Shown: positions 13,701-52,141 of the stretch, piece by piece
Layout of the letters: every line of letters begins with the position of its first letter
Position numbering within the stretch: the first letter of the stretch is position 1
Source: Lytechinus pictus
Taxonomy: Eukaryota
Reading direction: 5' to 3'
Assembly (NCBI RefSeq): GCF_037042905.1
Contig: NC_087245.1
Location: 15,006,001 to 15,070,000, forward strand
DNA: 64,000 nucleotides
Notes under the pieces: generated by a model
Databases searched by the model: none
What the model was told of the DNA's origin: nothing
Seen by the model: only the letters and a program-made list of their open reading frames with translations
Position numbers and translations under genes: made by a program

Positions 13701-16700
13701 GCAACAACCAAGGTATGTCAAGTATCAGCTTTTAAAGGCAGTTAGTAATTTTGTCTAGGATTCAAAATAAAATCCCTGATTCAGGTGCGATTTCTATCAT
13801 AAGTGTAATACTTTAGGTCAGGCAGGAACAGTCTGAGCTTTAGAACCCAAGTGGTCAATTTTTTCATCAAGATATCTATGATATTACGATTTAAAGGTAC
13901 CACCCTACCTTAAGAATTCTTCCAACAGGTATTGTCATTGCTGTTTGTTGCATGCTGCTATACTGGGCAACCCACCTGGTCCACCCGGTGGGTACTCTCA
14001 GGCACAGGATATTACTAACATGTATTATTTTTTGCATTTTTAATGGCTGATTTTAATGACTGTCGTTTCATCTAGAAAGTTCAGGCATTGTTGATTATTC
14101 AATTGAAAGAGATCATTTTTTGTCAACTTGCTCCAAAAGTGATTCATTCCATTAATGACAAGTGACTACTGATAAAATTGCTGGAGTAAATGTAAAGTGT
14201 TTTCATGAATCATGTAAGATGCAAATTGAGAGAACAATCTTGTAGCCAAGTTGGTCAAAAGTAACTATGTATGTAAATATTTCTTTAATAAGCATCAATC
14301 TGCTCGTATTGCCAATATATGAAATAAGTTGTACTTTTTGTATGTATTAGAACCCAAAAGAAATAGTGCCACCCAGTGTGTAAAAATATATGAATTTTGG
14401 TGATTTTCTTTTATGATGTAGGGTGGTCGTCATGTAGACTACGTTGCAGATCAAATAGTAACCCAGATTATACAGACAGTGAAGAAGAAGAACAAAGCAG
14501 GAATCAACATCAAACCTTTCCAGGTATATTCATTTCCATCCCTCTCACACTTCCCCATCCTCTTTATTTCATTTCTTATTGTTCCACTCACTAGTATTTT
14601 TACCATTTTAACCTTTCCTCAATAAAAAAAACTTTCCCTGCAAATTTTTCAGTTATCTTTCCTAAACATATCCTTCTGTTTGTTTATTAGTATATTCAAA
14701 TTTGTATGCATGGATCTTTAAACAAAAGATATGAAAGCCTTGCCAGATAGAGCAACAACTACCAGTAATTCATGCAGACTGGATACCAAGTATTACTCTA
14801 GTTCATTCATTAACAGCCGTTAAATGATTTACCCACTACTTTTACATTTATGAATATCAATAAATTAGTAATGCCTTCCATTATTTTTTCTTATGAATTA
14901 AAAATGTGTGTCTCAACTCCACTGTCAGCTGAGAGCTGTATCCTATTTTCAATTCAATTCAATTCATTTTATTCAATCATTAAAAACATTAATATACAAA
15001 CCAAAATATATACAAAATCATACATGAATGTAACAGTATAGTTTAAATGATTAGGGTGCCCCTAAAAGCAAAAGCTTGATGAGTGGGACACCCAATTACT
15101 TATGTATATATATAAGTGTACATCAACCAAAAAATTACACGGGGGCGGCGGGCGAATTCGCCCCGGAAAGTCCAAAAAGAGCCCCGGAAAAGGGCTAAAA
15201 ACATTCACACGAGGGCGACTGCAAAACTCATAATCGCCCCCGTCAACTAGGCTTGGGAGCCAGCGCCGGGTAATCGAGTCTACCCGATTCTCAATGCCAG
15301 AGTCGGGGAGTCGACCCTGATCTCTGGAGACTCGAGTACCAAGCGGCGGCGGTTCTGAGATAAAGGGACTCGAGTCTTTGCCATGCTCTCTCATTCATGG
15401 ACGAAAATCGGCCCCAGCGCCGACTCCAAGCACTGAGATAAAATAAATGTAGAATTTGGAGCCGAGGAGTCATATACTTTGAGCAGAACGTTTCTCTGCT
15501 TGTGTGCTTTAGGCTCAGTGTGACTGCATGTGGTATGGGGATGCATCGTGTGCATTGTGTGTAGTGTGTATTTCTGTGTGTGTGACTGTAAAATGCCAGT
15601 AGAGACCACGTGCGCATGTGTTGAGCGACACTTGTGATTGTATCATGAACTGGGATTTGTGTGTGGATTGTGTGAGAAGTTTGGTGAAGGTGTAAGATTT
15701 TGGGCGACTTGATAGATGATTGCTCCCCCCCTCCCATTTATCGAGCTGCAGCCACCCATCTTGATCCTTCCCCCCAAAGCTTGTCTCTCCTCATTCCTTC
15801 TTTTCTTCCAAACTTTATTTCCCTATTATTCTTGTTAATTTCTCCTTTTACAAGTTGTAATTCACTACGAACTTCATTATAATTTTAATGAAGTGTTTAT
15901 CACCTCTTGTTTGTTTTTAAATATTTTTATATCTCTGTTCAAAACAAGAGTTAGTCTATCCCTTTAAAAAAAATCACGCTTTGATTTTTTTTCTTTCATT
16001 CTAGTCTTAAATGGGAGTCTTGCCTTATTGGAATATTGGCAAGAAGTTAATAAAAAAAATGATGTTATTGTTCTGTCAGTAATAAAAGTAGAGATTCAAC
16101 TGGATATTTTTCAGTCATATTTCATTTAATCTTCGTTATTTCAATCCAAACATTCATTTTTTTTTCAATGATGTATTTCACCTTTGGCCAGTTCGCCATT
16201 TTCTTAAGTGACTGAAAACGTAGACTAGCCCCTTAATTCAGGGACATCAACCCTCGGCAATTTGTTTACATAACTTTCTTTGTCTCCGTCATGTATTGCA
16301 CAATCTTGAGAAGCACATGTTTGGAAATCTGATATTCTTGTGGTGGTGGTGGGGGGGGGGGGTACGAGATTGCCGCCCTTTTCATTCTGTTTTGGTTTGG
16401 CTGCCACATGGCCTCTCTCACTGTGTGGAGAAATTAGGTCAGGTAAAATTTGCAAAGACGTGGATAAGTTCATTTCAATTAGAGGCTGTGCAAGGCTATC
16501 ATGATGGATGATGGAAATTGCCAGTTTTGGTTCTGGTAGGCCTTTTTGTCATGAATCTGTGTAACTGTTACGAACGCTTAACAATTCAATGACCTTTATG
16601 ACTTATATCATTATTTTGTATGAATAATTTTAAGTCTTTTTTAAAAAGTGTCATTTAAATAACTTTCAGTCAAATATGTACGAAGGATATTTGTTCAACT

Positions 16701-19700
16701 TCATAACATTTGCAGGTACCTATATTGTATGATAAAATAAATTACCTCAGAATTGTACAAATTCAGAACTTTCTTTTTCTTTTACATTGTCTTTAGACAC
16801 GAATACAGATCTTTCTAGATTAATTTGACAAATGCGCTATAACACTCAATAGTAAACACGCAAAGCTCACGTCAACCAAGTATCAAACATTCAAACTTGG
16901 ATTAATTCATGGAGGTTCTACCTCCATGATTTAATCTGAATAGGTCTGTATTAGGTCCATGAATCAACTCAGATATCGTTCAAGCATCAAAATCCATCTA
17001 TCATCACAACACTAAAATCATAAACAATCACTTCGAAGAAACAATGCTATATGCGAAGGTCAAACCAGGGAAGTGTTATACTTCCCTGGTATATGCTAGC
17101 TACCGTGTATATATATACACACACACACACACACAAACGCAAAAAAGCCGCGAAATAGCTCCAGAAATTGTAGCCCTGGAAAGTAGAAATTGTAGCCCTG
17201 GAAAGTGGAAAAAGAGCCCTGGAAAATGAAAAAGTAGCCCTGGAAAATTTTTAAGTTTCTCCAAAAAGAGCCCTGGAAAGAAAAAAAGTAATTTTTTGGT
17301 TGGTGTACATAAAAGTGAAAAGGTAACAATAATAAACACAAACAATACATAAGAAAATAAAACGGTAAACCTACAGGGGAGAGGAAGGGGGGGGGTCAGG
17401 AAAAGGGTGTGCAAATGAATTATGTGATTAATTGGCATACATAATTACAAGTGAACTTTTGAGTTTTGTTTTAAATGCAGTAACATTTGTGCTAAAAATT
17501 ACATTGAAAGGGAGGGAATTCCATATTCGAGGACCAGTGGATTTAAATGAATAAAGGGTTGATTGATTGAATGCTACAGGATAATGGAATTTAGAGTGGG
17601 AACGGGTATTGTATTGATGGTAGTCTTTATTATATTTAAATAGATTGATCATATTAAGGGGTGCTAAGTTGTGATTTACGTAGTACATTAGAATTGCAAT
17701 TTGAATTTTATGAATATCAAAAACTGTCAAGGTGTTTAATCTAAAAAATAAAGGGCGTGACGGAGCTAGGTAGTGGGAGTTAGAACAAATACGTAAAGCC
17801 TTTTTTTGGAGTATGTGTATGGGGTTTAGTTTTGTAGTGCCACAACTTGCCCAAGTGATATTACCATAATAGATATAAGGAAGCAATAAAGAATTGTAGA
17901 GCATAAACAAATGTTTTTCTGTAAGATTATTACGTAATTTAGCTAATATACCTATATTTTTTGACATCCTATTACTAACAAAAAAGCGGTGTTCATTGTA
18001 AGACAATTTGTCATCAAGTACAAATCCTAAGAATTTTACGGAATTTACTAATTTTAAAGTTACATTTCTAATTTTAACATTGAAGTCGAAAGATACATTG
18101 TGGGATAATTGAGGTTTTCGAAAATACATAACACTTGTTTTGTCATAATTGACAACGAGTTTGTTTGCATCGAACCAATCACAAATCTTACATAATTCAT
18201 CATTTGTTTTTTCCAGTAAATATATAAAATTGCTATGGGTAGAAATAATAGTAGTGTCATCAGCAAATAAAACATAATTAAAGAATGAAGATGCTGAACA
18301 TAAGTCATTTATATAAATAAGGAAGAGAAGCGGGCCCAGTATGGAGCCTTGGGGGACTCCATACTGGGCGATAGAATATTGAGAATCATAATTGTTAAAT
18401 GAAGTGTAGTTTTGTCGATCAATTAAGTAGCTCTGGAACCATTCCCACACTGCTCCCCTAATACCGTAATGAGATAATTTATATAAGAGAATGTTATGGT
18501 CTATGAGGTCGAAGGCTTTTGATAGGTCTAGGAATATTCCAAATGAGTGGTAATTATTATTCATATTAGTTAAGAGGGTATTATTTAAGTCAATTAATGC
18601 ATGCTCACATGAATGTCCTACCCTAAATCTGTATTGACAGTTGTTTAATATTCTGTTATTATCTAAGTGGGAAATTAATATTTTGTAAACAATTTTTTCC
18701 AGGATCTTAGAAAAGCATGATAATAATGTAATAGTTCGGTAATTAGAAAATGAATGTTTATCGCCTTTTTTGAAAACTGGGATGATTTTTCAGATTTTTA
18801 AGCTATTAGGTACTTTGCCAGAACATAAAGATAAATTAAATATATGTACTTATGGTTTAAGTATAGAAAAATATTGAAAATATTAGAGTTGAGTTGTGAT
18901 CTTATTCTAAGTTTGGTGGTGTTTGGCTGGTTGAGTGGACGTCTTTAATTTGGTCCCAAGAGAAGACATTGTAGACCTTCAGGAATGCTCCTCAAGCGGA
19001 GTATGCAAGTATGTTGCCAGCTCCATTTTGGATACTTGATGTTGCCAATGCATCTCTTCAGCATTTCAGGAAAACATCATCGCCTGAATTTATCATTTTA
19101 TCAAGGACAGTGTTAGGCAGTTGCTAGTCCAACTTTTTAAATCTGGTTTTGTCCTCCATCTTGAATCTAACCTACCTTCCCCCCCCCCCCATTCTTGCTT
19201 TTTCCATGTCTTTGGCCATCTAAATAAAAAAAAAAAAATGAATGGGGAAGATATCCATCTTCTTATGCACATTTCTCTTTCTTTAGGTCCGTAGCCATAT
19301 TTGGGTGTTTGTGAACTGCCTAATAGAGAACCCCACCTTTGACTCACAGACCAAGGAGACCATGACACTTCAGGTCAAGAAGTTTGGCTCCCACTGTAAA
19401 CTCAGCGAGAAGTTTATCAAAGCGGTAAGATTATAAATCGTCACTTCTCTGTTCACTCTTTTCTTGTTTATTTTGTGTGGTTTTTTTTATGGGGGGAACC
19501 AGTAAGGAAATATCTGTTTCCCCTTATTAAATATGTTTGGGAATATTTGATTTTCTGATAAACTCACTTCTGGCCTGTTTCATAAAGAGTTGCAATTGTT
19601 TTAACTTGATTGTGATTGGCTGCTGAGCCTTGTTGCCATGGTAGTTGCCATAATGGTTAAGTTACAACAGTTGTAACTCTTTATGAAACAGGCCCCTGTA

Positions 19701-22700
19701 CAAAGTTATAATCTTGAAGCATTGTATCTTTCATGACCGTTGTGAAATATACTCTTGACATAATGAATATATTGACATTGCAATCTCACATATTTCATTA
19801 TTATAAAGATCTGTCTGTTCCTAATTCCAGGCTTCCAACTGCGGGATAGTAGAGAATATTCTATCCTGGATGAAATTCAAGGCTCAGGTAGGAAAATGTC
19901 TTTTGCTTTTAAGTTGCTTGTAATCAGTTTAAATATGAATGGGTGTAATTTTGTTCTAAGTTGTGGGTGTGATATTAAAATGTGTTTTTTATCATGGTTC
20001 TAAGAGTAACAATATACCTGGGAATTATTAGATTATAAAGTTTCATTGAAATGGGAAATATAATATGGGATGGAGAATCTAGGTAACTACATGTATTATG
20101 TATTTTTGACATTTTACTAGTGTCTTATGAAAAGGAAGTAAGTTTTTTGTTATTATTTTAATCCTGTGAAAAGATAGGTGTCCAAAACACCACTCATGAG
20201 TTTTTTTCATGAGAATTTTGTTTCGATGTATACATGCTTAAAATTTTTCAATCAATAACCGATGTAAAAGGGTCCTCTTGGAGATATTTTCCAAAGATGA
20301 GGTGAAAATGCCCAGAATCCATGTTTATGAATTCATCCCAAACTTATTTTTGAAATGGAAATTATGATATGTAATTTCTTTGTACTGCCCACAGAGTCAG
20401 CTGGACAAGAAATGCCACACCTCCAAGCATTCCAAGATCAAGGGTGTCCCTAAGCTTGATGATGCCAACAGTGCAGGGGGCAGGAACTCATCTCTCTGTA
20501 CACTCATCCTGACTGAGGGAGACTCTGCCAAGTCACTGGCTGTCAGCGGGTTGGGCGTGGTCGGTAGGGACCACTTTGGGGTATTCCCCCTCAGGGGAAA
20601 GCTGTTGAATGTCAGGGAAGCCTCTCACAAGCAGGTAAGCAATACAAGCTGGAATATTGATGTTTCAGTTATTTTTTTTTCTGTCATATATATATATATA
20701 TATATATATATGGGTAATGTTGAAAGTGTTTGAGTATGATTAAGAAGTCATGGTCTGCAGTGTTGGTAAAATGTGGCACACGGAATATTCACCCAATCTC
20801 TATCTACCCACTAGCCCTACAGATAGATATTAAGGTGTGACTTTTGCCCTCGATTGAATCCTGTACAGCCAGCCTTTTTAAATATTTTTTTGTATGTTTG
20901 AGCCTCATTATTGGAATAAAAGACAGACCCCTGTAACTATTTTTCTTGGAACAGTTGGTCCCATGGATTTTCTTGACATTACGCCACAGATGAAAACTTA
21001 TCTTAAACCTAATGCCAACCCTGGTCATTATCCCCTCATAATTCAAGACCAAAAGTTGTGAGGTACAGAGGTTCTTAGAAATTAGACAATTGTCACAGGA
21101 GTGACATCACCTGGAAGTTTTGCCTCTTTCTTATATTAGTATTTTAGCACTAGTCATGCAAAACTTTATAATCGGTATTTCACAAGCTGGTTATCTGTCT
21201 CTTTGCTAGATCATGGAGAATGCTGAAATCAACAATATCATCAAGATCCTGGGTCTTCAATACAAGAACAAATATGATTCTGAAGAGTCCCTCAAGACTC
21301 TCCGCTACGGGAAATTGATGATCATGACTGATCAGGATCAGGATGGTTCTCATATCAAGGGTCTCCTAATCAACTTCATCCACAGCAACTGGCCTCAACT
21401 TCTACAGAGGGACTTCTTAGAAGAATTCATCACACCCATCGTCAAGGTTTGTTGGTAGTAAGGGAAGGGGGGTTGGGCTGGGGGGTGTTGTGACGACTGA
21501 TCAGGATTTTGGTGGTTCTCATATCAAGGGTCTCCTAATCAACTTCATCCACAACAACTGGCCTCATCTCTTACATGGAGACTTCCTAGAGGAATTCATC
21601 ACACCCATTGTCAAGGTATTTTGGTAGCCTGGAGGGATAGGGTTAAAGATAACTGATCAAGACAATTTGATTCAGTCTGACAACATTTTATGGTTCGATC
21701 AATGAACTTTTGATGCAAAGTCTACCAAATCACGCCACTTGATTAGAAAAAACAAACAGTAAAAGAACTAACACACACCATGCTCTTGTTATTGCCTGGG
21801 TAGCTTTTGTCTTATTTAGAAAAAAAAAATTATTGAAAAGAGTTTTCAGATGTGCATCATGATTAGAACTCTCAGATCGATGCCTTTCCAAGGAAATCGG
21901 CAACTTTGTGATTTTGAAACGTCAGTTATCAATGTTGATCCATTTCAGGTCAGGTAAATGAGTTTAGAAAAAAAATGCATCAATAAAAGAAAAATACTGC
22001 TTTGCCAACTTAAAAAACAGAAACCGTTCAAATAATTCTTTAAGCAATTTATGATAGTTAATGGGTTAGTGGATGGAGGCAATAGGGATTATGCCCAACT
22101 ATTTTCCATCTGTCTTTTTATCATGTTTAGGTGAGCAAGGCCAATGAGACGACGCTATCCTTCTATTCCCTCCCTGAATTTGAGAGATGGAAGAATGAAA
22201 AAGACAACTGGAAAACATGGAAGATCAAATACTACAAAGGTTGGTTTGAATATTTTCACATGGTCTTATGTTGGGTATTGATATGGGATGAATTTTCATA
22301 TGGTCTAGTCCCCGACTCATCTAGAATTTGAAGTTTATTTGCTATATGAAACAAATCCCAAGCATGAAATGAGATGAAGACTTCAGGATACAGTCTTTCT
22401 GATATACAATAATTTTATTTAAGAGATAAATGTTTGAAAAGCTTCTGTCTAGAAAAATAAATGACATTATAATATATTGATAAGTTATATCAGAATTTCA
22501 TAGAGGATCATCAATGGGAAAAATCTGAAATTTGTACTACAATTTTTAAAGATTCAAGTGTTAGAATTCATATTATTGAACATTTACCAATGCTTTAGAA
22601 CATGCTTTAATGATTTATTATAATTCATGTAGTTTACTTGGAATTTACTTCTGTGCTATTAACTGGCCACTGTAGACTTCATTAGATTGGATGATTCCTG

Positions 22701-25700
22701 CAGACTGTTAGATGATATTAAGATAATTTGCATCTCAATATTGTTTCTAGGTTTGGGTACGAGTACCATGAAGGAAGCAAAGGAATACTTCTGTGACATG
22801 GATCGTCATCGGATCCCGTTTGAATACACTGGACCGGATGATGATGCTGCTATTGTTCTTGTAAGTCTTCTCTCATTGATAATTTATGGTTGCAGCTTAT
22901 CATTTATGAGTAGTCCTTTACATGCATTTCTATGTGCATGACATGTGACTTTCATTAGTAAAATGCTTATTGCTGATTATTCTTACAATTCAAAATTCTG
23001 ATAGCATTCACTAACACTTCAATACATTCTATTCAATATTAATTCAAATGGTTTCTTTTTCAATTTGATCTAACTACCAGATTTGATTTTGTATGCTAAT
23101 GCAAGGTGTGTGTAAATTGAATTAAATTTGTTTCAAATTTATTGTATGTTTCATCATTATGTTTTGTAGGCATTCAGTAAGAAGAAAGTGGAGGATCGGA
23201 AGGTATGGCTGAGTGAATGGCTAGAGGAAAGGAGAAGCAGGAAAGAAACAGGACTTGGAGAGGTAGGATAACCTTTATTGAATTGCAAATAAAGATTTTT
23301 TGCAAGTGTTTTCAATATAATTTGATAGAATTTCTGTAAAGAATGATAAAATGTACAGGATTTCACAGTGAAATGAAGTTACTAGTAGCTGTAGGATGGT
23401 GATGATGATGATGGTGATGATGATGATGATGATGGTGATTATTATGATGGTGATAATTATGATGGTGGTAATGATGGTGGTGGTGCTGATGGTAGTAGTT
23501 GTAATGATGATGATAATTGTGATTTTGATGATGGTGGTGATGATGATGATGGTGATGATAATGGTGATTGTGAAAATGTTGATGATAATGGTGATTATGA
23601 TGATGGTGATAATGATGATGATAATGATTATCATTATGGTTTGTAGTAGAACAATCAAAGACTGACAATCGGAATGATCAGGCGTACGATTGTTAAGATG
23701 ATAATGGTGATGGACAATGACTTGATGATGATGATTATCAAATTAATATGATAATGATGAAAATAATGCCAACAAGCATGATAAATATGCTGGAATATAG
23801 AAGACTATATTGATAAACAAAATTATTTTTTTCATCTTGCTAAAGCGCTACCTTTACCAGACAGATACTAAGAAAGTCAGTTACAATGAATTCATCAATA
23901 AGGAGCTGGTTCTTTTCTCTAATGCTGACAATGAGAGATCAATCCCATCCATGATCGATGGTAAGTCAAGTTATCACACAAAACTTGTAATAGATTGGAA
24001 GTCAATTTTAGGTCTCAAAATCAATCATTTGTCTATGCAAAACCTTGAACAATTATTGTAAATTATTGTAAGTTATGTTATGAGTATTTCATTAAACATG
24101 TAATTAATTATTAATGTTATTATGAAATTATTATAAATGAATTGGTTTCATGGTATTTAAATCAAATTAAATTCTAAATCATTTTTCCCACTACTGAATA
24201 TATGACAATTGTAGATTGTAGATTTTAACAAACGTTTAAATGCAAAGTGAAACGTCTGTAAATATTTGATTAGGATTTAGGAATTCAGTACCAATTTATT
24301 AAAACACACCAGGAAATTTTTTTGGGAAAATCATTTAGCACAAGAAATGTTGTTTATAGAATTATGCATGACAATATGAACATCTTTATGAAGTTGCTCC
24401 CATCATAAAAAAAAATCTATCTGATGCACTGGTGCTATTCAACATCTATTTAACTTTATTTTTCACAATAAAAGGTTTTAATTCTTCCCATGTGCTTCCA
24501 TGTGATTTTCAGGTTTGAAGCCGGGGCAGCGTAAGGTACTGTATACATGCTTCAAGAAGTATGAGAAGAAAGAGATCAAGGTGGCCCAGATGGCTGGTGC
24601 TGTGGCTGAGCTTTCAGCTTATCATCATGGTGAGGTAAGATAGCACATTCTTAGCCCATATTCACATATATGTTCTGATTTAAATTGTTGCTTGAAACGG
24701 TGATTTACTTTTTTGTGTCATCTGCTACTAATCTGTCTTCATGATATGTTGGATCTGGCAAACTGTCCTTGTTTGGATCTGATATGTCCAACTTTACTGC
24801 TTCAGCTGGTCTCGGGTTGGGAGAATTAATAGGTACGTGGTGAGTTCTCTGATCAGTAGCCTTCCTATGAGCAGCAAGATATCACACAAACCTGACAGTG
24901 TCTCAAAGTTGACACTCCTGACTCCTGTAACATTTATCATAGGTCTTTTTCTGTCCTTTGAGGACATCAATGAATTAAATAGTTGGTAGCTAGACTTTGT
25001 GATACTCAAACTTGAAACAGGCACAAGTTTGGGAGTGTTACATTAGTTGAAAATTACCTGAATAATGGCTGGGCTATGGGAAGCTAAAGTGGATTTCCTA
25101 ATCATTTTATTTGTGTAACCTTAATATACAGAAGTTGATAAACATTCTTACCGTGAACATACATTTTAGTTCAAGTTGTTATTTGTGGATTTCCCACAGT
25201 TTGAATGAAGTCATTGCCAATATAGTAAAACTTTGTTAACACATACTTTGGCTTCACACTTGGCATTCTGTATACCAGTCATTGTCTAAGTTGTTCAGAA
25301 CAAATGATGAGCTTTGTTTGACAGCCTCATGTTCTTTTAGCCAATAGATCAATGAACAATGAAATAGAAAATTGCATTATTTCAGGGAAAGGATTATAAC
25401 AATTATTTCCTTGATAACTTTTGCTCTAGACATCTCTGATGAGTACAATTATCAACCTGGCCCAGAACTTTGTTGGTAGCAACAACCTGAATCTCCTGCA
25501 GCCCATTGGTCAGTTTGGTACCCGCCTTCATGGAGGAAAGGACGCTGCTAGCCCTCGTTATATATTTACTCAACTCAGGTATGTACAATGAGTGAATAAA
25601 GATTGAAGGTAAAGTTCATCCTGAAAATGAATGGCATGCATAAACAATTATTTTTAAGGGGAGAGTGAAATCATCTTCGATAGGTTGTTTTTGACGAATC

Positions 25701-28700
25701 AGAGGTTACTTCGTATGGTTGTCAATTTATGTTTACTTGATCACAAATTAAAAAGAATTCAAGTAAGATATAAAGAATAGACATCTTCATTTCCTTTGGG
25801 CATATTTTCTGTAGCAAAGAAAGGAAAGGTTTGGTTGGACTTATGTTTTGAAGTCTTACTTGTTTTTGATCTGTTTAGTATATGATATCACTACTTGTTT
25901 GTCTGTCCTTTCTTTGAGAAAAAAAGAAAGCAATTCCTTTATAAGTGGTATTGTATCATGAAGTATCGCATACAATTAGGAAATTGAAGCTTGAACACTG
26001 CTTTGCCACTACAACTGCATTGACTTTCCCTTTGCTATGCCTCTCTTCTTGTTCAGTCCCTTAGCAAGGCTTGTCTTCCCTGCTCACGACGACTCCCTCC
26101 TCACCTACATGTTTGATGACAACCAGCGTATCGAACCAGAGTTCTATGTTCCCATCATCCCAATGGTTCTTATCAATGGCAGTGAGGGTATCGGTACGGG
26201 ATGGAGCACCAGGATAAGCAACTATGATATCAGAGAGGTCATGGCCAACGTCAAAAGACTCCTTGCAGGAGAGGATCCTATTCCAATGGTAGGTTAACCC
26301 ATAGGGTAAGGGTGAGATAAGGGTTGGCTTGACAAAGGGTTGAGTTTGAACCTTTATTTGTTTGTAAGAGGCAATTAGTATGGTGTTAAAGGCAAACTAT
26401 GTCACAGCCATCTTGAATAGCATCAGCTCAGGACCTAAACTAAATAAATAGTCACTGTTTCTGTACCCAGAATGCAACATTCTGATCATGAAGTCTTGAA
26501 ATATACGCCAATTTTTAAAAATCTTAATACCACATTACGTTGCCAAGAAGAAAACTGAAGAGAGCACAATTCCAAACATTTTTGTTTTCCATTGAAGATT
26601 AGATGGCCATCTCAATTTGTAATGAAATTCACAAAATATTTTAGCAGTTGTTTTATGAGAAGACATGGATGAAGGCTAGAAGTTGGTACATGGGCCTGTA
26701 TGGGAGTGTGGTTGACCTCTCGGAAGGACACTTCCCATTTTAAGATGTAATCTCAATGAACTACTACCATGTCCCGTCTCTTTTCACTGAATAACCTTTA
26801 TCACTTTTGTGTAAGAGCATTGAGAAACAGAGAGTGGTCCTGCAAACCTGGAGTCAGTTTTACATTTGAGGATGATTACCTAGAGCTCCTGTGGTTCATT
26901 AACCTATTGCACAAGTAACCCTAATAAAAATGTATTGAATAATTTAAAATAAGATGAAATGGTATGAGCAAGATAATAATCCTTACTAATTCATCTGTTA
27001 TTTGTGATATATCTCTTCAATATCTTTAAAACAATCATTTAATCATCCACCATCCTTCTCAGCTTCCATCCTACAAGAACTTCCGTGGAACCATCGAGGA
27101 GTTTGAGCCCAATCGTTTCGCTGTTAACGGAGAGATCGCAGTGACAGACAACAACTCGGTAGAGATCACAGAGCTGCCTGTCAGGGTCTGGACCCAGAAC
27201 TACAAGGAATCCGTCCTGGAGACCATGGTCTATGGGACAGAGAAGGTCAAGCCATCTATCACGTAGGTTGTCCTAAAACTGGTACCGATCAATTCTAGGA
27301 ATGGAAAGAAATGTACGGTTCTCGGTTCATGGGGAAAAAACAAATAAATCTTGCTCACAAAATCATACCGGTACATTTTGGTGCTTCTACTGAGGTATGA
27401 GTACACACTTCATAAGAATTATTTATACTGCACTTTTTATTTAACCAGGGGGTGTTTTCCAAAGATATAAGTGTGACTTAAGAGTTGCACTTAAATCAAG
27501 CAGGGGTGTTTTGCAAAGATTTAAGTTTTAAATAAGAGTTGCGCTTAAAATTAACCAGGGGGTGTTTTGCAAAGATTTAAGTGTGACTTAGGAGTTGCAC
27601 TTAAATTTCAGTTGGGTACGGTATATAATGCATCACCTTATTGGTCAGATTATAATCATGGGATGTGCACTACCGTCTATCAATCAGATTTTGCACTAAG
27701 TAACATGTATGCATTCACTCTTTGTGAAACACCCCCCTAATGCAGGCAATTGCCTAGTGTGCCCACCTTAACTGCCCTGCTGCCCGTTTAAACCAATAGG
27801 GGTTAGTGCAAGTGAGACATTGCCCATTTACTTGGAATCCTGTCCACGACACCTTAATTTCCATGCTGTCATTGCCTGTCTCCCTATTTTCTTCAGTCAA
27901 TCAATGTTTGTTTCATTACCACATTCTTCAGGGACTACAAGGAGTACCATACAGACACCACGGTCAAGTTTGTAGTGAAGATGAATGAGGAAAGGTTGAT
28001 GCGAGCAGAAGACGAAGGCCTTCATAAGATGTTCAAACTACAGACGACATTCTCACATGCTAACATGGTAAGTCAGTAAAGGGTAACTCATGTTGTGTCA
28101 AAGGAGGTAGAAAAAGAGTAAATTTGTTGTTCTTCTGGATACAAAATGGAGATAAAAAGAGAAAAATTGTTTTCGTGGTAATGACATTATATATTTGAGA
28201 AATATAAATTCCCAAAAATGCAATTTTTTCATAATTTTGAATGTGCTTTTATTTCTGCAGTGAATATATCATTAGTCACATAATCTCATACCCCTTCTAT
28301 AGGAGAGTTATTTGTATTAATCATATTCCATAAAAAAATTAGTATCTATATTACATTAATTAAAAGCTTAAAAATTCAAATCACTTATTCCTTATTGGAT
28401 TTCATGAAACTTTCACCATTATTTTTTATATTTTTTTCTTGTAGGTGAATTTCCCCTTTAATGGCAAATTCACAATTTTTATAAATTCCTGAAAATGAAA
28501 TATGTACACAAATTTTATATTTTTATATTTTTTGGTTATTCTTGGTCCCATTTCATTTTTTTTCAGGTGTTGTACGACAGCCATGGTTGTATTAGAAGGT
28601 ATGAGAATGTTGAGGAGATCCTGAGAGAATTCTTTACCTTGCGAATGGAGCTGTATCACAAGCGAAAGGCCTACCTTGAAGGCATCTTGGAGGCTGAATC

Positions 28701-31700
28701 AAGCAAGCTCAACAATCAGGCTCGATTTATCATGGAGAAGATAGACGGCAAGGTGGTGATAGGTGAGGCAATGACTGACAAGGCTGGTTTTATGAAATTT
28801 TGTGTTTGATTCAAATCAATCTCAACGATGGAAAGTCAATAAAACCATAATTCTTCATAGAAAAGCACATGCACTTATCCATTTGTAAACAACAAGGATG
28901 TAACTGATTGACCAAAACAATAATAATAATAACAATGCATGAGTATTGTTTCTTGTTTGCGAGACATGATATAAAAGGGCATTTTAAGTCAAGATGATGG
29001 TGTCATTGACCTTCCGTTGATTTGGTCAACAACACTCTTTTTGTAAGATGTGGCCTTGGGCTTGTTTGATAAAAACTTGATATTTATTCAAATCAACTTG
29101 AAATTGATTTTTGATCTCTTAAATACAAAAGGAAGATCAATTCTCGATTTGGGTATACTTTGAATCAGTTGCAACTCTGCAAAATGTCATTTGTCTCAAT
29201 ATAATGTCTTGTGTGCCTGTAATAAGCCAATTCGTAGTTCCTTTCTGCGCATGATCAAAAGATTCTACGCATGATCAGAGGAAGGTCATTTGTACTGAAG
29301 TGACATGGTGGTTTAAAATCTAATGAGATAAGCACCAACTTTGATGTCTTGATTATTCATATATTCTTTTGAATTGTGCTTTTCATTTACATCCACAAAA
29401 AACAACAATTCGTCCACGAACGACTGGTATTTCACAGTTTGCCAAGTACATTGTGCAACATGCTATGATATGCATTCAAAGTAGGAATGCAACAAATACC
29501 TTCATAAAGTGTTCATTTGTGTGCTATTCTAGCCACCTGGTCTATATATATTCAATTTCTTCATCCTGCTATGTAAGGCAAGCTTACGTAATATTTTGCT
29601 TTGAAATCTGCCTATCATAATGAAAGAAATGAAAGGTCATTTGACCATAATTGTCCAGAAGTAACTATGAACTGGTCTATTGAGCTCCATCTTAAAGCTA
29701 CAAAGTGATTCAAGTATTGTGATCAAATCATGAGTTCAATATTGTTGATATCAATATTAATGGTCAGCCCCAGGCTTAAACAAGCATATCTCATTGATGC
29801 ATATCTCTAAAAACGCCAATACACTTACAAGTAGTATAACAGGAGTATAAAGAAGGGAAAAAATAAAAACAGAGAAATAGCAATACAAAGGTGAGGCCAA
29901 AGTTTGATAAAAATATGTGATTGATGACAGGAGACAAATCCATTAGCCATCTTATCCACCAGGGGCCCGTTTCTCAACACATGGACAAGTTGGTCATATT
30001 TTTATCCACCAACCAAGGAGTTAGTTCCAATCTTGCTAAACCTGTTTCTCGAAAGGCTTCCTAACTATAGAATACATGTACCTTGATATCGATACTATCG
30101 GTAAAAAGAGCAGACGAGAAGTAGCCTTAGTCACAAAATAGCATAATTTTCAAAAAGAAAAATTATGACAAAATTGCAAATATTATGATGAATTGGGAAA
30201 TAAATCTTTTCAAAATAATAGCACAGGTGAATTATGCATCATACATACTTAGACCATGAAGACTGGAGCATTCAATTGGAGAGAAAATTAAATTATGAAT
30301 AATTCATTTCATGACTAAAAAATCACTTGTGGACGTTGAGATGGGTACCCCCGGGAGACCCAATTTTAATAGTTTACGAAAGTAAACCATAACGGTTTTC
30401 TTTGTAAAATGATGATAATTATACGGACTTTTACGATTCCAAACGTCATCAAAATATAGGTTAACGAAACATTTTTAATCATTGATACCGAAAGATACGA
30501 TATTGGACAAATTATATGCATAAATTAGAGATAGAATTCATCCAACTGTTAATAGGGGTCTGAAAACAACAAATGCGAGTTCAGTTATGGATGGTCTGAC
30601 GTGGTAGAATCTTTATCGATTAAATCATTTTACTATTTCAAAATGAATGGTTTTGTGGCGTTTACCAACACTTTTTATAGTTTCTTTGTATTACAATTAT
30701 CATTGAATGCATTAACCCACTTGTTTTGTGATGTAATTTCAACCACTATGATTGATTACGTAAGATTATAATTTTAAAATTTCTAGGCACTTTCGCATGT
30801 CATAGTCTACCCAAGTAATGCCACTACGTCATTAAGAAAGAAGTTAAGACAGGTTCGGAGGTGTCATAAATATTTAGTGAGGTTGTTGTACCCGATCTTG
30901 GTAAAGAGGGCTTCGTGAAACGGTTAGCGGTTAGGTAGCTCACTATCTCCGATTTAGTCAAGAAGTTAGACTTATGACGGTGTTGAGAAACGGGCCCCAG
31001 ATCCTGACATCCTTAGTGTTCTTCTTTCTCCGCTATCTTTACAGAGAACAAGTCCAAGACATCCATGATCAGTCAGCTGGCCTCTAGGGGGTATGACTCG
31101 GACCCTGTCAAGGCCTGGAAGGAAGCCCAGCAGAAGACTGTGGAGGATGAGGATAGCTTTGACGATGCCGCAAGTGATTCGTCAGAGGCTGGCTCTGGAC
31201 CCGATTACAACTACCTTCTTGGAATGTCCTTGTGGAGTCTGACAAAAGAGAAGAAGAATGAACTGCTGAAGCAGAGAGATGATAAGGTATGTATTCTGAG
31301 AAGATTTACAAGTTTTTGTTGGATTTTTCTTTTATACATCCGATTCTGAGTTTAGAGATCCTGATTGATGAGATATCTGTGATAATTTTTTTATTAATGC
31401 AATGGCCCCCCAAATATATTTTGTGTCTTAGTCTTGCATTACTGCATATTGATATTGCTTCATATTTCTATTTCAGGTAGCGTATAGATGATGTTAGTCT
31501 ACTCTGATAAGTGCAAGTATTATTAGGGTTTCGAAAAATTTGTCCTTAAATACTGAATATATCTCAATAAATACAGTCAAACCTGTGTATAGTGGTCACC
31601 AAAGGAAAACAGCAAAAGTTGCTAAGTACTATAGACAGGATAGCAGCCATCATGCCATGTACTGTAGATATTGCAATGTACTGGACCTACAGTTTCGATA

Positions 31701-48247: not shown

Positions 48248-51200
48248 TTACTCAAGCTGTAGAACTGCACGTGTATTTTCACCTGATCCTGCTAATAGTA
48301 GAGCAACAGAACTCCCGACCACAACAGCAACAGCTTTGTCTTTCAAATTAGCCATGACCATACGGAATGAGTTATGGACTACGAACTCGGTCACCAGAGT
48401 TTCAAGAAGACTTCCGTCCTCAAGGGAATGCTTGTTGACGGTGACTACATTTGGACGAGAAGCCTTTTGGGAAGCGACATACAGAAAATCACTCTTGTGA
48501 CATGCCAAAGCCAGATACAGGGTGTTCTCTTCAGCGATGACAAAGTTCTGCATACCATCATCGCGTAGCCTCTGAGAGTGAACTCCCTGTCGATCATGGT
48601 CTATGAAGATGGCATTCTGGAACTTATCGAATCGCAGGAAGCGAACACCACCGACATAGGATGCGGTCAGCGAACTAACCAGATTTCCTTCAATGTCCAT
48701 GAACATGATACATTGATCATGGAAATTCTGATCTGCTACTACGATTAGGTCTTGCCCATCACTTGGGCAAGAAGTTACAGAGACCCACTTACCATTAAAT
48801 CCATGCAACAGGACACTAGATTCACCTACAATTTTGAAGATTTCCTTCTTATTATTTTGGTACACTATGGTGCTGCCAGCAACCACAGTCAAGTCCCGAA
48901 CCACATCACCATGAACAAGGTTGGGACCATCTTGAAGGAGTTCATCTTCAAGAGGAGGTATATCTTTAATCCCATTCCAAGTATCAGCAATCAACATTTT
49001 GCCATCATCTAGGAACATCAGCTGTGAAATGGATTCATATGTTTCATCATAGCGATGTGAAACCCAGTGTGGTACGACTTCAAATCGTCCCAGGGTACTG
49101 CTATTGCACAATGCATCAAGGTATAGCTTACTTGGGATGAATTGTAAGCCATAATCATTCAAGGCATCACTGAGAGCCGAACTGGGAGTCAATGGCTGGG
49201 AGTCAATGGCTTTTAGTAGATCCTTCATCTTGTTTGCTATGCTACCTTGTTTCTTTACCACCAGTGCATCACTCAATGATTCCTGCAGAGTTTGCCATTC
49301 TGTCACGACAGCTTGCAGACTTTCCTCAAGATTTGAACACTTGTTCTGCTTTTCTTCCATCTCTTCCTCCATCCTCCCCATTACTGCACCAAGGTAAGCC
49401 AGTAGCTCCTCTTTCTTGTCCTCAACCTTGGAGATTACCGTCTCAGCTTTCTGACGAACCTCTGCCATAAGTTTCTGGAGGGCTTCGGTAGCATTCTCTC
49501 GGATCATGTTGACCTCATGGTGAGTTGTTTGAATGGCAATGCTCTCATTGCTGCATTGGTCGATCAGTTCCTGCATCAGAACCTGGACACTGGATGCCTT
49601 CCTGTGCAGGGGGATGGTGGTCTTTCTGTCATGGCTGCACAGACGGCAGCAGAGCTTATCACACTGAATACAATAGAATTTTGCTGGGACCCAACAATGT
49701 ACTTCACAATTTTGATCGGCATCAGGTCCAGACACAGTTCTGTGATGAGAATGGTGCTTAGGACTCTGAACACACTCCAGGCATAGATGCTCCTTGCAGT
49801 GGTGGCAAAAATATGTGGCATCCAGCTTGAGCTTCTTACAATTTTGGCATCGGTTGGCTTCTTGTCCCTTAGAATCTCCACTGGCATCTGAAAAAAATAA
49901 TTTCAATAAAATCTGTTCATTAAGGATACAATTTATGTCCCTTCTCTGTGTGTCAATTTGCAGGAATTATGTTATGTACGGTTTTGTTATTTTCGATGGA
50001 AGCATTAATAAGGAGACTCTTAAGAATGTTATATAACAATTTAAATTAGGAAACATTTAGTCAACATACTGTAGATATTCAGCAATATTTTCAATGATGA
50101 TGTGGAAGAGGTTCATCATGGTGAAGGATTGAGTAGAAGAAATAACAAGTTGTCTCACGATGTATCAAACGTAGCAGGAAAGCGACGTTTGCTCATTGCC
50201 TGACGAAGTCTAGCAGCTTGCAGACGAAACGTTGTTTTCCTACTACATTTGATACATCGTGAGACAACTGGTTATTTCTTCTACTCAATCCTTCACCATG
50301 ATGAAGGTTAATATTTTCAATATTTGATTGAGTAGAACAGTAAATATGAATGAATTTACAAATAATACAGCAGGCAATAGATATAATATTATGATTTTGT
50401 CTCTGAGACTGTCATCAAGACAAGGGTATCAAAGTACAAGTCCATACAAACAAAAAAAATGATTGGAATAGAGAGAGAAAAATCATACAAGCATAATGCT
50501 GAAAACTTAATCAAAATTGGATGTCAATTTTAGGACATTTCTAAATTATTTTTCACAAAACAACCTTATGCACAATACATGCTGAAAGTTGATGATGTCA
50601 CACACTATATTATACAGTATTTATACTATATTTTAATTTTTGCCACTTTGATAATAAGAAAACTCAGCAGCTAAGTGTGTATATTTCTGATCTGGCAATG
50701 GCAGAGGCATACGTTTTTAATTGTGTACAGTCAAGAGCTGATCCATTGTCCTAATCTACATGTATTTCCCTTTTTTTAAGTATAGATACTATAGGTGTCA
50801 GTCTGAAAATGAGAATCATCCTTGTACTAGGATCTTCCCTATTTAGAATATCTCCACAGAAAGAATCTAGGATAGTTCATTCATCAATCAACTGCAGACA
50901 CTAAAACATTCAATGTAAACGTTTCAGGTTTCATAACAACCTTGGGAGGATGTCAAGTCAATTTCAAAAAGATAAGTTGAGCTGGTGCTTAATTGGTCCA
51001 AAGAAATGACAGAATATATTCTTAGCATTCTCAATTCTGTAATTGCCATCCAAGCCTGGAAGGGTGAAGTGAAAGCAATTTGTTCTCATAAACGATGACA
51101 ATTCTGGTTTACCAGGATATGATTCTGAAGTCTTGGTTTATTAATTGTAGATATCCATGTTTTCTAATAAAATCCTATCATCATGCAGCATCTCTGTTTT

Positions 51201-52141
51201 TTTCATGATGTATGATAAGTTTATGAATGTCTTTTAGTCATTAATGTATTTTAGGTCTGTTGGTTTTGTATATATATTCACAAAATCCAGCATGGAGTCG
51301 CGATACTTTGAAATTTAATCCTTCAAAATCATCAAAACCAAGCTTTTTACCTTCTTCTAATAGTCTTATGATATAACTAGTTAATATTGAAATTCGGCCA
51401 CACATATATTTGCATATTTTCCCAAACAAAACCCATATGTGGAGGCGCGATAGCTCAGTCGGTAGAGCGGGGGTTTCGGATTCCGGTGACCCGGGTTCGA
51501 TTCCCAAGAGGTGCGCTAGTGCCCTTTGGTAAGGCATTTATCCTCATTACCAGGTCCCTCGGAGAGGACCTTAAGCCGTTGGTCCCCTGGTTGCTTGCTC
51601 ACAGGCATTCGTGCTTTCTTAGCAGTCAGGTAAAACAACCTCGGTATAACAAAATCATGACTCGTGTTCATCTTTTCCTTTAGTCTACCCCTCATTCTTT
51701 TTTTCTTTTCCCTTTTCCTCGCTTTTCTTTCTTTTCTCTTTCCCCCCTTTCCCTCCCTTTCTTTTTTCTTTTTTCATTTCACGATTATTAGAGGTAACAC
51801 ATTTCACAAAAAGACCACCTTCAACTTTGTTTTTATATACCTGGACCATGATTTTTGGTTTTGTCCCACACGTCCAGTTTTTCCAGCAAGCTGTTGATGA
51901 GCGCATTGCCCTTCAAACCGGCCACTCCTTCCCGCGGTAGACGGGTCACGTCTCGGCAAACTGGGCACGAAATCACATTGGCTGCTTCACGGCCTGACAT
52001 CACGCAACTTTCAAGACAGTCGAAGCAAAATGTGTGCTGGCAAAAGAGACATCTTGCATTGCGAAGCGTGTCCATGCACACAGAACATTCGAACTCTTTT
52101 CTCAGTGAGCCAATCACATCTAAAGGAGCTGCCATTGCCAT
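48248..52141 (-). CDS. Tripartite-motif (RING, B-box x2, coiled coil, probable beta-propeller) E3 ubiquitin ligase, TRIM56/TRIM45/TRIM71-like, ~646 aa
   Basis: Exon 1 (52141-51841) encodes a C3HC4 RING, CSVC..CQHTFCFDC..CPVC, and ends CCA G|GTATAT. Exon 2 (49887-48248) starts TTTCAG|AT GCC; phases match (301+1640 nt). Exon 2 has B-box motifs CQNC..FCHHCKEHLCLEC and CEVH..FYCIQCDKLCCRLC, an E/K/L-rich helical segment and a beta-strand-rich C-terminus (DGKMLIAD, LIVVAD). Confidence 0.9.
50096..50309 (+). mobile_element. Penelope-like (retrozyme-like) short insertion with inverted arms
   Basis: 50112-50190 and 50227-50305 are near-perfect inverted repeats; 12-bp flanking direct repeat AATATTTTCAAT (50084-50095, 50310-50321); hammerhead core in the centre. 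Confidence 0.7.
50196..50236 (+). ncRNA. Minimal hammerhead ribozyme motif (PLE type, probably decayed)
   Basis: CUGACGA (50200-50206), stem II GUCU(a)GCA/UGCAGAC, then GAAAC (50226-50230) and GUU. The inverted arm preserves the variant AAACGUCGC. Confidence 0.6.
51441..51637 (+). mobile_element. tRNA-derived SINE
   Basis: Pol III A box TAGCTCAGTCGG (51451-51462) and B box GGTTCGATTCC (51494-51504), followed by a core-like GTGCCCTTTGGTAAGGCATTTATCCTCA body and an A-rich end; no proper anticodon or acceptor stem. Confidence 0.8.

What the first reader, a model, noticed from the sequence alone, without database searches (positions are those of the whole stretch)
50084..50321. Tiny TSD-flanked foldback insertion with a hammerhead-ribozyme core inside the TRIM intron
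Seen: a 214-bp insert between exact 12-bp direct repeats (AATATTTTCAAT). Its ~80-bp arms are near-perfect inverted repeats. The only unique central part is GC-CUGACGA-a-[GUCU(a)GCA gcu UGCAGAC]-GAAACGUU, which is both conserved hammerhead boxes with a proper stem II. The opposite arm retains AAACGUCGC, giving a GUC cleavage triplet, a palindromic ACGU mini stem III and a GC/GC stem I start. Known: Penelope-like elements and retrozymes carry such minimal type I hammerheads, which work as dimers, and often insert as inverted structures. Inference: this is a non-autonomous ribozyme-bearing retroelement, possibly an undescribed family. Transcribed within the TRIM pre-mRNA it would form a long dsRNA hairpin, while the ribozyme sense is antisense to TRIM.
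Basis: partly seen in the sequence, partly recalled or inferred. Interest (0 to 1): 0.7.

Follow-up and report, generated by a model that had tools for sequence, protein, structure and literature searches.

The report
Head-to-head Penelope retrotransposon stub
This 214-base hairpin in a gene's intron is two short, head-to-head copies of the ribozyme-bearing end of a full-length Penelope-like jumping gene found elsewhere in the same genome, likely laid down in one insertion event, in a layout already described for these elements, so it is real but mostly ordinary.

Summary
In detail: a 12-bp direct repeat, 79-bp arms with 5 mismatches, and both hammerhead boxes. It is not a separate non-autonomous family. 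Both arms are the 3' end (pLTR plus tail) of an autonomous Penelope-like element in this genome. One copy has an unbroken 868-aa RT + GIY-YIG frame whose stop codon lies in hammerhead stem II. The 33-nt core occurs 81 times; 39 arms end about 12 nt before the ATG and 37 end 19-20 nt after it, like the two RT start sites published for Anolis Poseidon. Of 27 two-arm copies, 21 pair one short with one long end and none pairs two long ends. Junctions all differ, so each is likely made afresh at insertion. This copy's ribozyme is likely dead: GUU instead of GUC (1 of 81), buried in the hairpin, antisense to the gene. Rfam gave no hammerhead hit. Inverted pLTR with a one-sided tail and TSD is published, and this scan noted such stubs before on other DNA.

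The parts
50084..50095 (.). Left target-site duplication (12 bp)
   Evidence: Exact repeat of 50310-50321; 15 of 18 two-arm family copies have 12-16-bp repeats, 0 of 500 random pairs reach 9
50096..50190 (-). Long-end arm: element 3' end from the GAAAC box to 21 nt into the ORF, tail included; lacks CUGANGA and stem II
   Evidence: 90 of 93 aligned bases identical to copy L007; end matches the +19/+20 class
50096..50128 (-). Tail (~32 nt) between the two preferred ends; holds the ORF start codon at 50116-50114
   Evidence: Tandem copies L045 and L050 run on from this ATG into the ORF
50188..50305 (+). Second arm: from 12 nt before the hammerhead core to 5 nt into the ORF; joined to the first arm over a 3-nt overlap (TTT, 50188-50190)
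   Evidence: 112 of 118 bases identical to L007; overlap read from the sequence; the +5 end is atypical
50200..50233 (+). Minimal type I hammerhead core: CUGACGA, extra A, stem II, GAAAC-GU with no loop 3, cleavage triplet GUU (family GUC); the parent ORF's stop codon is at 50211-50213
   Evidence: 80 of 81 exact-core copies have C at the cleavage position, only this one T; stem II covaries across other core families; no Rfam hit
50306..50309 (.). Four extra bases between arm end and TSD, origin not resolved
   Evidence: Sequence; not part of the element alignment
50310..50321 (.). Right target-site duplication (12 bp)
50326..50337 (-). 12-nt exact echo of the element's short-end region, 4 nt beyond the TSD; possibly an aborted third priming or an older remnant
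   Evidence: Longest such match among 22 two-arm copies (others 8 nt or less); 0 of about 1980 random window positions reach 12
49888..51840 (-). Host intron of a TRIM-like gene (RING exon 52162-51841, B-box exon 49887-48248); the insert lies about 200 nt from the 3' splice site
   Evidence: Splice joint in 17, 20 and 32 reads of three RNA runs; RING and B-box profiles

Best explanation
The insert is two head-to-head, 5'-truncated copies of the 3' end of an autonomous Penelope-like retrotransposon of this genome, likely made in a single event in which both cut target strands primed reverse transcription and the two short cDNAs were joined. Shown: sequence identity to the parent's end, the parent's RT + GIY-YIG frame, the TSD, two preferred 3' ends about 32 nt apart, and short-plus-long pairing in two-arm copies. 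Inferred, by analogy to Anolis Poseidon in vitro (PMC11167929): the endonuclease makes a staggered cut about 12 bp apart in AT-rich DNA; one strand primes at the site about 20 nt into the ORF, the other near the site about 12 nt before the ATG (here at +5); both cDNAs stop after 95 and 118 nt and are joined over a 3-nt overlap; gap fill gives the TSD. The hammerhead is a passenger from the pLTR. In this copy it is predicted to be inactive and the insert is likely neutral intronic debris.
For: Parent: L031 has the same layout at 3.65 kb (TSD, tail-less inverted 1021-bp arm, 2.6-kb sense arm with tail, TSD). L050 has an unbroken 868-aa frame with RVT_1 E 9e-7 (29.3 bits, just under the 29.6 cut-off) and a weak GIY-YIG match (E 0.05 whole protein; 0.002 for the isolated L031 domain). 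Ends: 39 short, 37 long, 5 other of 81 cores chosen without regard to ends. Pairing: 21 short+long, 4 long+other, 1 short+other, 1 short+short, 0 long+long of 27 (hand tally). TSDs in 15 of 18 and 7 of 7 two-arm copies. Ten small foldbacks have ten different junctions. Junction overlaps of 0-3 nt in 7 of 12 resolved junctions, inserts of 1-17 nt in 5; 5 more were not resolved. Literature: inverted pLTR, 31-bp tail on one arm, 9-10-bp TSD (PMC3846280, passages); both strands cut and extended, two RT start sites equal the tail (PMC11167929, parts 1-2 of 4).
Against: This copy's second arm ends at +5, in neither main class, with 4 unexplained bases and a 12-nt echo in the flank. No empty site was seen: the flanks are single-copy and I laid no DNA run on this site. 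Both arms cover the same 79 nt, which one RNA can template only with strand displacement or a second RNA; neither is shown. PMC3846280 reads head-to-head junctions as self-priming on an antisense template instead. In vitro, PMC11167929 saw no strand difference in start site, so the strict pairing is not explained by that paper.
Confidence: 0.85

Rival explanations
1. Same parent and same insertion, but the inversion arose by self-priming or template switching (snap-back) on one cDNA or on an antisense RNA, not by priming on both target strands.
For: Proposed for head-to-head Penelope junctions in PMC3846280 (passage). Two small foldbacks (L004, L005) turn inside the near-palindromic stem II loop. 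Both arms here share one private C-to-T change that lies in the atypical extension to +5, as copying of one arm from the other would give. Family RNA reads come from both strands.
Against: In this copy each arm has sequence the other lacks (tail on one, core on the other), so neither strand can be made by simple snap-back (sequence). Snap-back does not predict that the second arm ends at the same short site where single-arm copies end. The shared change is at a CpG, and 4 of 12 CpGs in the arms have decayed (my count), so a parallel hit is possible.
Confidence: 0.08
2. A non-autonomous, self-propagating ribozyme retroelement (retrozyme-like or MITE-like) that is transcribed and reinserted as a foldback unit by the Penelope enzymes.
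For: At least ten TSD-flanked or near-TSD foldbacks of 179-278 bp exist in this family, and 5 of 16 loci of other core families hold their core inside a 200-330-bp foldback.
Against: No two share a junction or arm lengths; sizes grade up to 3.65 kb; no head-to-tail tandem arrays of a 150-450-bp unit were seen in the loci read, which metazoan retrozymes have (PMC7229834, passages); no promoter part (TATA, CCAAT-like repeats) is in the insert; a hammerhead-competent fold costs 16.6 kcal/mol here against 6.4 in the parent pLTR.
Confidence: 0.04
3. The insert began as Penelope debris but has been kept because its hairpin acts on the TRIM pre-mRNA (splicing, editing, small RNA or dsRNA sensing).
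For: Very stable predicted hairpin on the pre-mRNA strand, about 200 nt from the 3' splice site of an expressed gene.
Against: The arms differ at 5 of 79 positions with no compensatory pair. Reads on the insert carry other copies' letters (C at 50233 in 43 of 43, 52 of 52 and 71 of 75 reads) and the unique flanks have depth 0 to 0.1, so nothing ties an RNA to this copy; about 6% of each run was read.
Confidence: 0.03

Closest known systems
Inverted-pLTR insertions of endonuclease-bearing Penelope-like elements (Adineta Pen2a_Av, PMC3846280; general layout in PMC8557442 fig. 2 legend)
   Same: Head-to-head arms, 5' truncation, a 30-40-bp tail on one arm only that reaches into the ORF start, TSD around the whole unit.
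   Different: Here the main copy is cut down to about 100 nt as well, so the unit is only the two ends; TSD 12 bp (family about 9-16, overlaps included) against 8-10 bp in Adineta.
Poseidon element of Anolis carolinensis, PAc (PMC11167929)
   Same: One ORF with RT and C-terminal GIY-YIG, hammerhead in the pLTR, two 3' ends a tail apart, AT-rich targets.
   Different: In PAc the ORF starts at stem II and RT starts 111-118 nt into the ORF; here the ORF's stop codon lies in stem II, the ATG is about 68 nt past the cleavage site and the ends flank the ATG. No biochemical test here.
Minimal type I hammerheads of metazoan PLEs (PMC4209133)
   Same: CUGANGA and GAAA boxes, extra base before stem II, G-C first pair, 7-bp stem II, palindromic 15.2-16.2 with no loop 3, so only a dimer can form helix III.
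   Different: Stem I has 2 standard pairs then two U-U mismatches (published: 4-5 bp; 2 bp in the D. virilis variant); a sister family in this genome keeps 5 bp. This copy has GUU at the cleavage site.
Metazoan non-LTR retrozymes (PMC7229834)
   Same: Small, non-coding, low G+C, type I hammerhead, long TSD.
   Different: Retrozymes are head-to-tail repeats with canonical hammerheads that release circular RNAs; this is one head-to-head unit with a minimal core, derived directly from an autonomous element's end.
L1 twin priming (recalled, no call)
   Same: 5' inversion made by priming from both target strands, microhomology at the junction, TSD kept.
   Different: In L1 the two cDNAs cover adjacent parts of the RNA; here they overlap over most of their length and start at two fixed sites with no poly(A).

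Membership tests
Endonuclease-bearing Penelope-like element (parent) | Single ORF with RT followed by a C-terminal GIY-YIG endonuclease | tested here: met
   868-aa frame in L050; RVT_1 at 323-511 and weak GIY-YIG at 681-718; YVDD and the YKIPC..YIGET motif read in the translation
Endonuclease-bearing Penelope-like element (parent) | Partial-tandem pLTR arrangement and 5' truncation | tested here: met
   L045 (692-bp upstream copy) and L050 (120-bp) run from pLTR into the ATG; 81 cores against 11 matches to the 5' ORF part
Endonuclease-bearing Penelope-like element (parent) | Inverted pLTR with an optional 30-40-bp tail, and TSD | tested here: met
   Two end classes about 32 nt apart; 27 two-arm copies; TSDs
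Penelope/Poseidon clade | No Zn-finger in the RT-EN linker, DKG motif unmodified, CCHH in the endonuclease (diagnostics from PMC8557442 introduction passages and section 11) | tested here: met
   By eye: linker without Cys, ADKG present, CxxC..H..H present; this excludes Neptune, Nematis, Hydra and the N-terminal-EN clades by motif
Penelope/Poseidon clade | Phylogenetic placement of the RT with named reference elements | not testable with these tools
   No named PLE reference among the 120 homologs listed of 1567; no solved relative; Repbase and Dfam not available
Minimal type I PLE hammerhead | Conserved catalytic boxes, covarying stem II, palindromic stem III | tested here: met
   Boxes near-invariant in 57 family copies; stem II pairs 2-4 show 6, 5 and 6 double-sided changes among 12 hand-picked core types, score 0.515 against 0.234; first pair was fixed by my search pattern
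Minimal type I PLE hammerhead | Stem I of 4-5 bp and an NUH triplet in cis | tested here: inconclusive
   Family: 2 bp then two U-U mismatches, GUC. This copy: G-C, G-U, triplet GUU, which is still NUH but by established knowledge much weaker than GUC (recalled)
Minimal type I PLE hammerhead | Self-cleavage as a dimer or with protein help | not testable with these tools
   No pile-up of read starts or ends on the parent in three RNA runs, at low depth and in fragmented libraries
Rfam hammerhead families | Covariance-model hit | tested here: not met
   No hammerhead family among 7 matches with E up to 10 in 49500-51000
Metazoan retrozyme | Head-to-tail 150-450-bp repeats with a canonical hammerhead | tested here: not met
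   Single head-to-head unit with minimal core; no shared unit among ten small foldbacks
Metazoan retrozyme | Abundant monomeric linear or circular RNA | tested here: inconclusive
   No read attributable to this copy; these libraries may lose small circles

The most novel reading that the evidence does not exclude
The two RT start sites of Penelope-like elements are not free alternatives but are assigned one to each target strand within a single integration complex: 21 of 27 two-arm insertions pair one short with one long end and none pairs two long ends, although single arms use both ends equally. These stubs would then be a genomic record of an ordered, asymmetric double-priming mechanism that the in vitro work did not resolve.
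Probability: 0.35. Interest if true: 0.45.

Novelty: new member of a known kind. Interest (0 to 1): 0.2.

Why it matters
The insert itself is likely neutral. It matters as a caution: small TSD-flanked hairpins with a hammerhead at the apex look like a new ribozyme element or a miRNA precursor but are by-products of Penelope insertion. The family is a compact test system: recent copies are 99-100% alike, one has an unbroken ORF, the two 3' ends are sharp, and two-arm copies pair one end of each kind. That gives a concrete prediction for how second-strand priming is ordered in this little-understood class.

Tried and rejected
Rfam scan of 49500-51000: no hammerhead; best hit MIR1507 (35 bits, gathering 73), rejected as a generic long hairpin. 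Loose hammerhead pattern in the window: not above chance. Run search: no RNA holder listed; three raw RNA runs were added by species label. A-to-I editing: not assessable, since reads on the insert come from other copies. Ribozyme cleavage in RNA-seq: no start or end pile-up on L050, uninformative at that depth. PDB sequence search with the parent protein: nothing better than E 0.25. tblastn of the parent protein on 16 loci of other core families found no ORF within 1.5 kb, so their Penelope link is not shown. First alignment had one sequence on the wrong strand and was redone. DNA transposon or MITE: rejected, since the arms are not terminal repeats of a fixed unit and derive from a retroelement end. 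Left out of the two-arm tally: L052, L055, L109, L123 (inverted part internal or cut by the locus edge) and L059/L133 (unresolved). Paper searches: 'Penelope + inverted + target site duplication + twin priming' gave 2 papers, off topic by title and abstract start; 'Penelope-like + sea urchin + Poseidon' gave 1, off topic; a 2024-onward mechanism search gave PMC11167929 as the only PLE mechanism paper by title. These do not show that the family or the pairing rule is unpublished.

Full report
Observation. The window holds an exact 12-bp direct repeat at 50084-50095 and 50310-50321 around 214 bp whose arms (50112-50190, 50227-50305) are 94% complementary over 79 nt. Either strand folds into one long hairpin, z -17 and -19 against 200 shuffles. 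Rfam found no hammerhead model at E up to 10, and a loose box pattern is not enriched in the window, so the ribozyme claim needed family evidence. The host gene is TRIM-like (RING E 1e-6; B-box E 7e-5, just under its cut-off), on the minus strand, and three RNA runs splice out 49888-51840 (17, 20 and 32 reads).

What it is. The insert matched 92 places among 40 scored candidates of 327 in the 812-Mb genome. Most matches are one arm only and continue upstream into a TATA-like box and a long reading frame. L031 has an 852-residue stop-free frame, a tail-bearing 2.6-kb sense arm, an inverted tail-less 1021-bp arm and a TSD: the same plan as the window insert at 17 times the size. L050 carries an unbroken 868-aa ORF preceded by a partial pLTR. 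It has YVDD, ADKG, a Cys-free linker and a GIY-YIG domain with CCHH; Pfam support is RVT_1 E 9e-7 and a weak GIY-YIG match. By the motif diagnostics of PMC8557442 this fits Penelope/Poseidon; no tree with named references was possible. The ORF's last codons overlap the hammerhead core and it stops in stem II; the next ATG lies about 68 nt past the cleavage site, inside the tail. The nearest named homolog is a Lytechinus variegatus protein at 96% identity over 74% of the query, so the host is likely a sea urchin. Contigs of a run labelled as a second organism cover the ORF with depth rising from about 200 at the 5' end to 10,000-29,000 at the pLTR, and 32 of the 36 listed ORF differences fall on third codon positions (my count; 71 rows not shown).

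Family anatomy. The exact 33-nt core occurs 81 times, control 0. I read all 81: 39 end 7-14 nt before the ATG, 37 end 19-20 nt after it, 5 elsewhere (the reference stopped at +20, and flanks show that most copies diverge there, a few running 1-10 nt further). Of 27 two-arm copies (hand tally; five loci left out, see Tried and rejected), 21 pair a short with a long end, 4 pair a long end with an odd end (this insert among them), 1 short with odd, 1 short with short (mirrored flanks, no TSD), and none long with long. Independent use of the two ends would give one long+long per two mixed pairs; the chance of none is about 3e-4 (computed for 20). Part of the sample was found with a tail-bearing query, which cannot disfavour long+long. 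In the 12 pairs where both arms hold the exact core the split is 8 mixed, 1 short+short, 3 odd. The short-end arm reaches further 5' in about 16 of 22 unequal pairs (hand tally, p 0.03), a weak trend. TSDs of 12-16 bp were found in 15 of 18 and of 9-14 bp in 7 of 7 two-arm copies, with end overlaps counted in; 0 of 500 random pairs reach 9. Ten foldbacks of 179-278 bp have ten different junctions. That is the main evidence against a self-copying small family.

The ribozyme. Core boxes are near-invariant in 57 family copies, though part of the core is also coding. A looser pattern gave 129 matches against 2 for the control. Among 12 core types that I picked by hand from the 100 listed, stem II pairs 2-4 show 6, 5 and 6 double-sided changes, covariation 0.515 against 0.234 +/- 0.044; the picking and the pattern-fixed first pair inflate this, and no ORF was found beside the other families. 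The design matches the minimal PLE hammerhead of PMC4209133, which needs a dimer and cleaves weakly. This family's stem I has only two standard pairs, a sister family five. Forcing a hammerhead-like fold costs 16.6 kcal/mol in the foldback against 6.4 in the parent pLTR (a rough monomer model). The host pre-mRNA carries the antisense. The copy is therefore predicted to be inactive. RNA reads on the insert carry other copies' letters and the unique flanks have almost no depth, so expression or editing of this copy is neither shown nor excluded.

How it likely formed. PMC11167929 reports that a Poseidon protein cuts and extends both target strands in AT-rich DNA, is predicted to be a dimer, and starts RT at two internal sites whose spacing is the tail. 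Applied here: a staggered cut, priming at the +20 site on one strand and near the short site on the other, early termination after 95 and 118 nt, joining over TTT, and gap fill to a 12-bp TSD. The arms now differ at 5 of 79 sites and lie 3-5% from the nearest older copy, so the insert is older than the 99-100% identical young copies. Loose ends: the +5 end, four extra bases, one C-to-T change shared by both arms only and a 12-nt echo of the short-end region just beyond the TSD, longer than in 21 other copies or about 1980 random positions. Self-priming on an antisense template (PMC3846280) remains a minority rival.

Comparison and verdict. Inverted 5'-truncated pLTRs with a one-sided 30-40-bp tail and a TSD are described as typical (PMC3846280, PMC8557442). 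Metazoan retrozymes differ in being head-to-tail repeats with canonical cores (PMC7229834). What I saw of each paper: PMC11167929 parts 1-2 of 4; PMC4209133 parts 1-2 of 4; PMC8557442 passages and section 11; PMC3846280, PMC7229834, PMC6765202 and PMC8969392 passages; no supplements were read, and those may list this family or end-pairing counts. L1 twin priming and the ranking of GUC over GUU are recalled. The scan's own notes, read after my reading was formed, hold 28 findings with these words in at least 13 genomes, none by sequence; they are not independent support. Verdict: a real, ordinary by-product of a Penelope/Poseidon-like element; new member of a known kind; interest 0.2. The short-plus-long pairing is the one lead worth a mechanistic test.

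Noticed in passing
L050 (G000:C21:3769500-3777500), 4523-1917 minus strand: Full-length family copy with an unbroken 868-aa RT + GIY-YIG frame; its C-terminus reads through the pLTR and stops in hammerhead stem II, while the upstream partial pLTR has a damaged first box.
   Followed up: partly
L031 6842-6891 versus L097 1485-1533: Two sister families share the core but differ in stem I: 2 pairs plus two U-U mismatches against 5 pairs. A natural pair for testing whether cleavage is still selected.
   Followed up: partly
L084, L090, L093, L096, L099: Cores of other sequence types also sit inside 200-330-bp foldbacks, so the stub layout recurs across families in this genome.
   Followed up: partly
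L074/L075 = L046 3961-6298: The only short+short two-arm copy has identical mirrored flanks and no TSD, suggesting a later inverted duplication or an assembly feature.
   Followed up: no
one search hit list: After sea-urchin hits, many close relatives of the parent protein (52-63% identity) come from the coral Oculina patagonica, closer than fish elements (38-39%); transfer between phyla is possible but untested.
   Followed up: no
window 51440-51652, + strand: A tRNA-like-headed repeat (A-box and B-box-like motifs by eye; ARAGORN calls no tRNA) in the same intron, with thousands-fold RNA depth from other copies: likely a SINE.
   Followed up: no
window 49882/51841: A second splice joint with 9 different letters in 5 reads each of two RNA runs, probably an allelic exon edge; the TRIM exons carry many allelic differences.
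   Followed up: no
L105 and L106; L125, L130, L131; L014 and L015: Copies with identical flanks at different places, i.e. duplicated segments or haplotype duplicates, so the 81 cores are somewhat fewer independent insertions.
   Followed up: no
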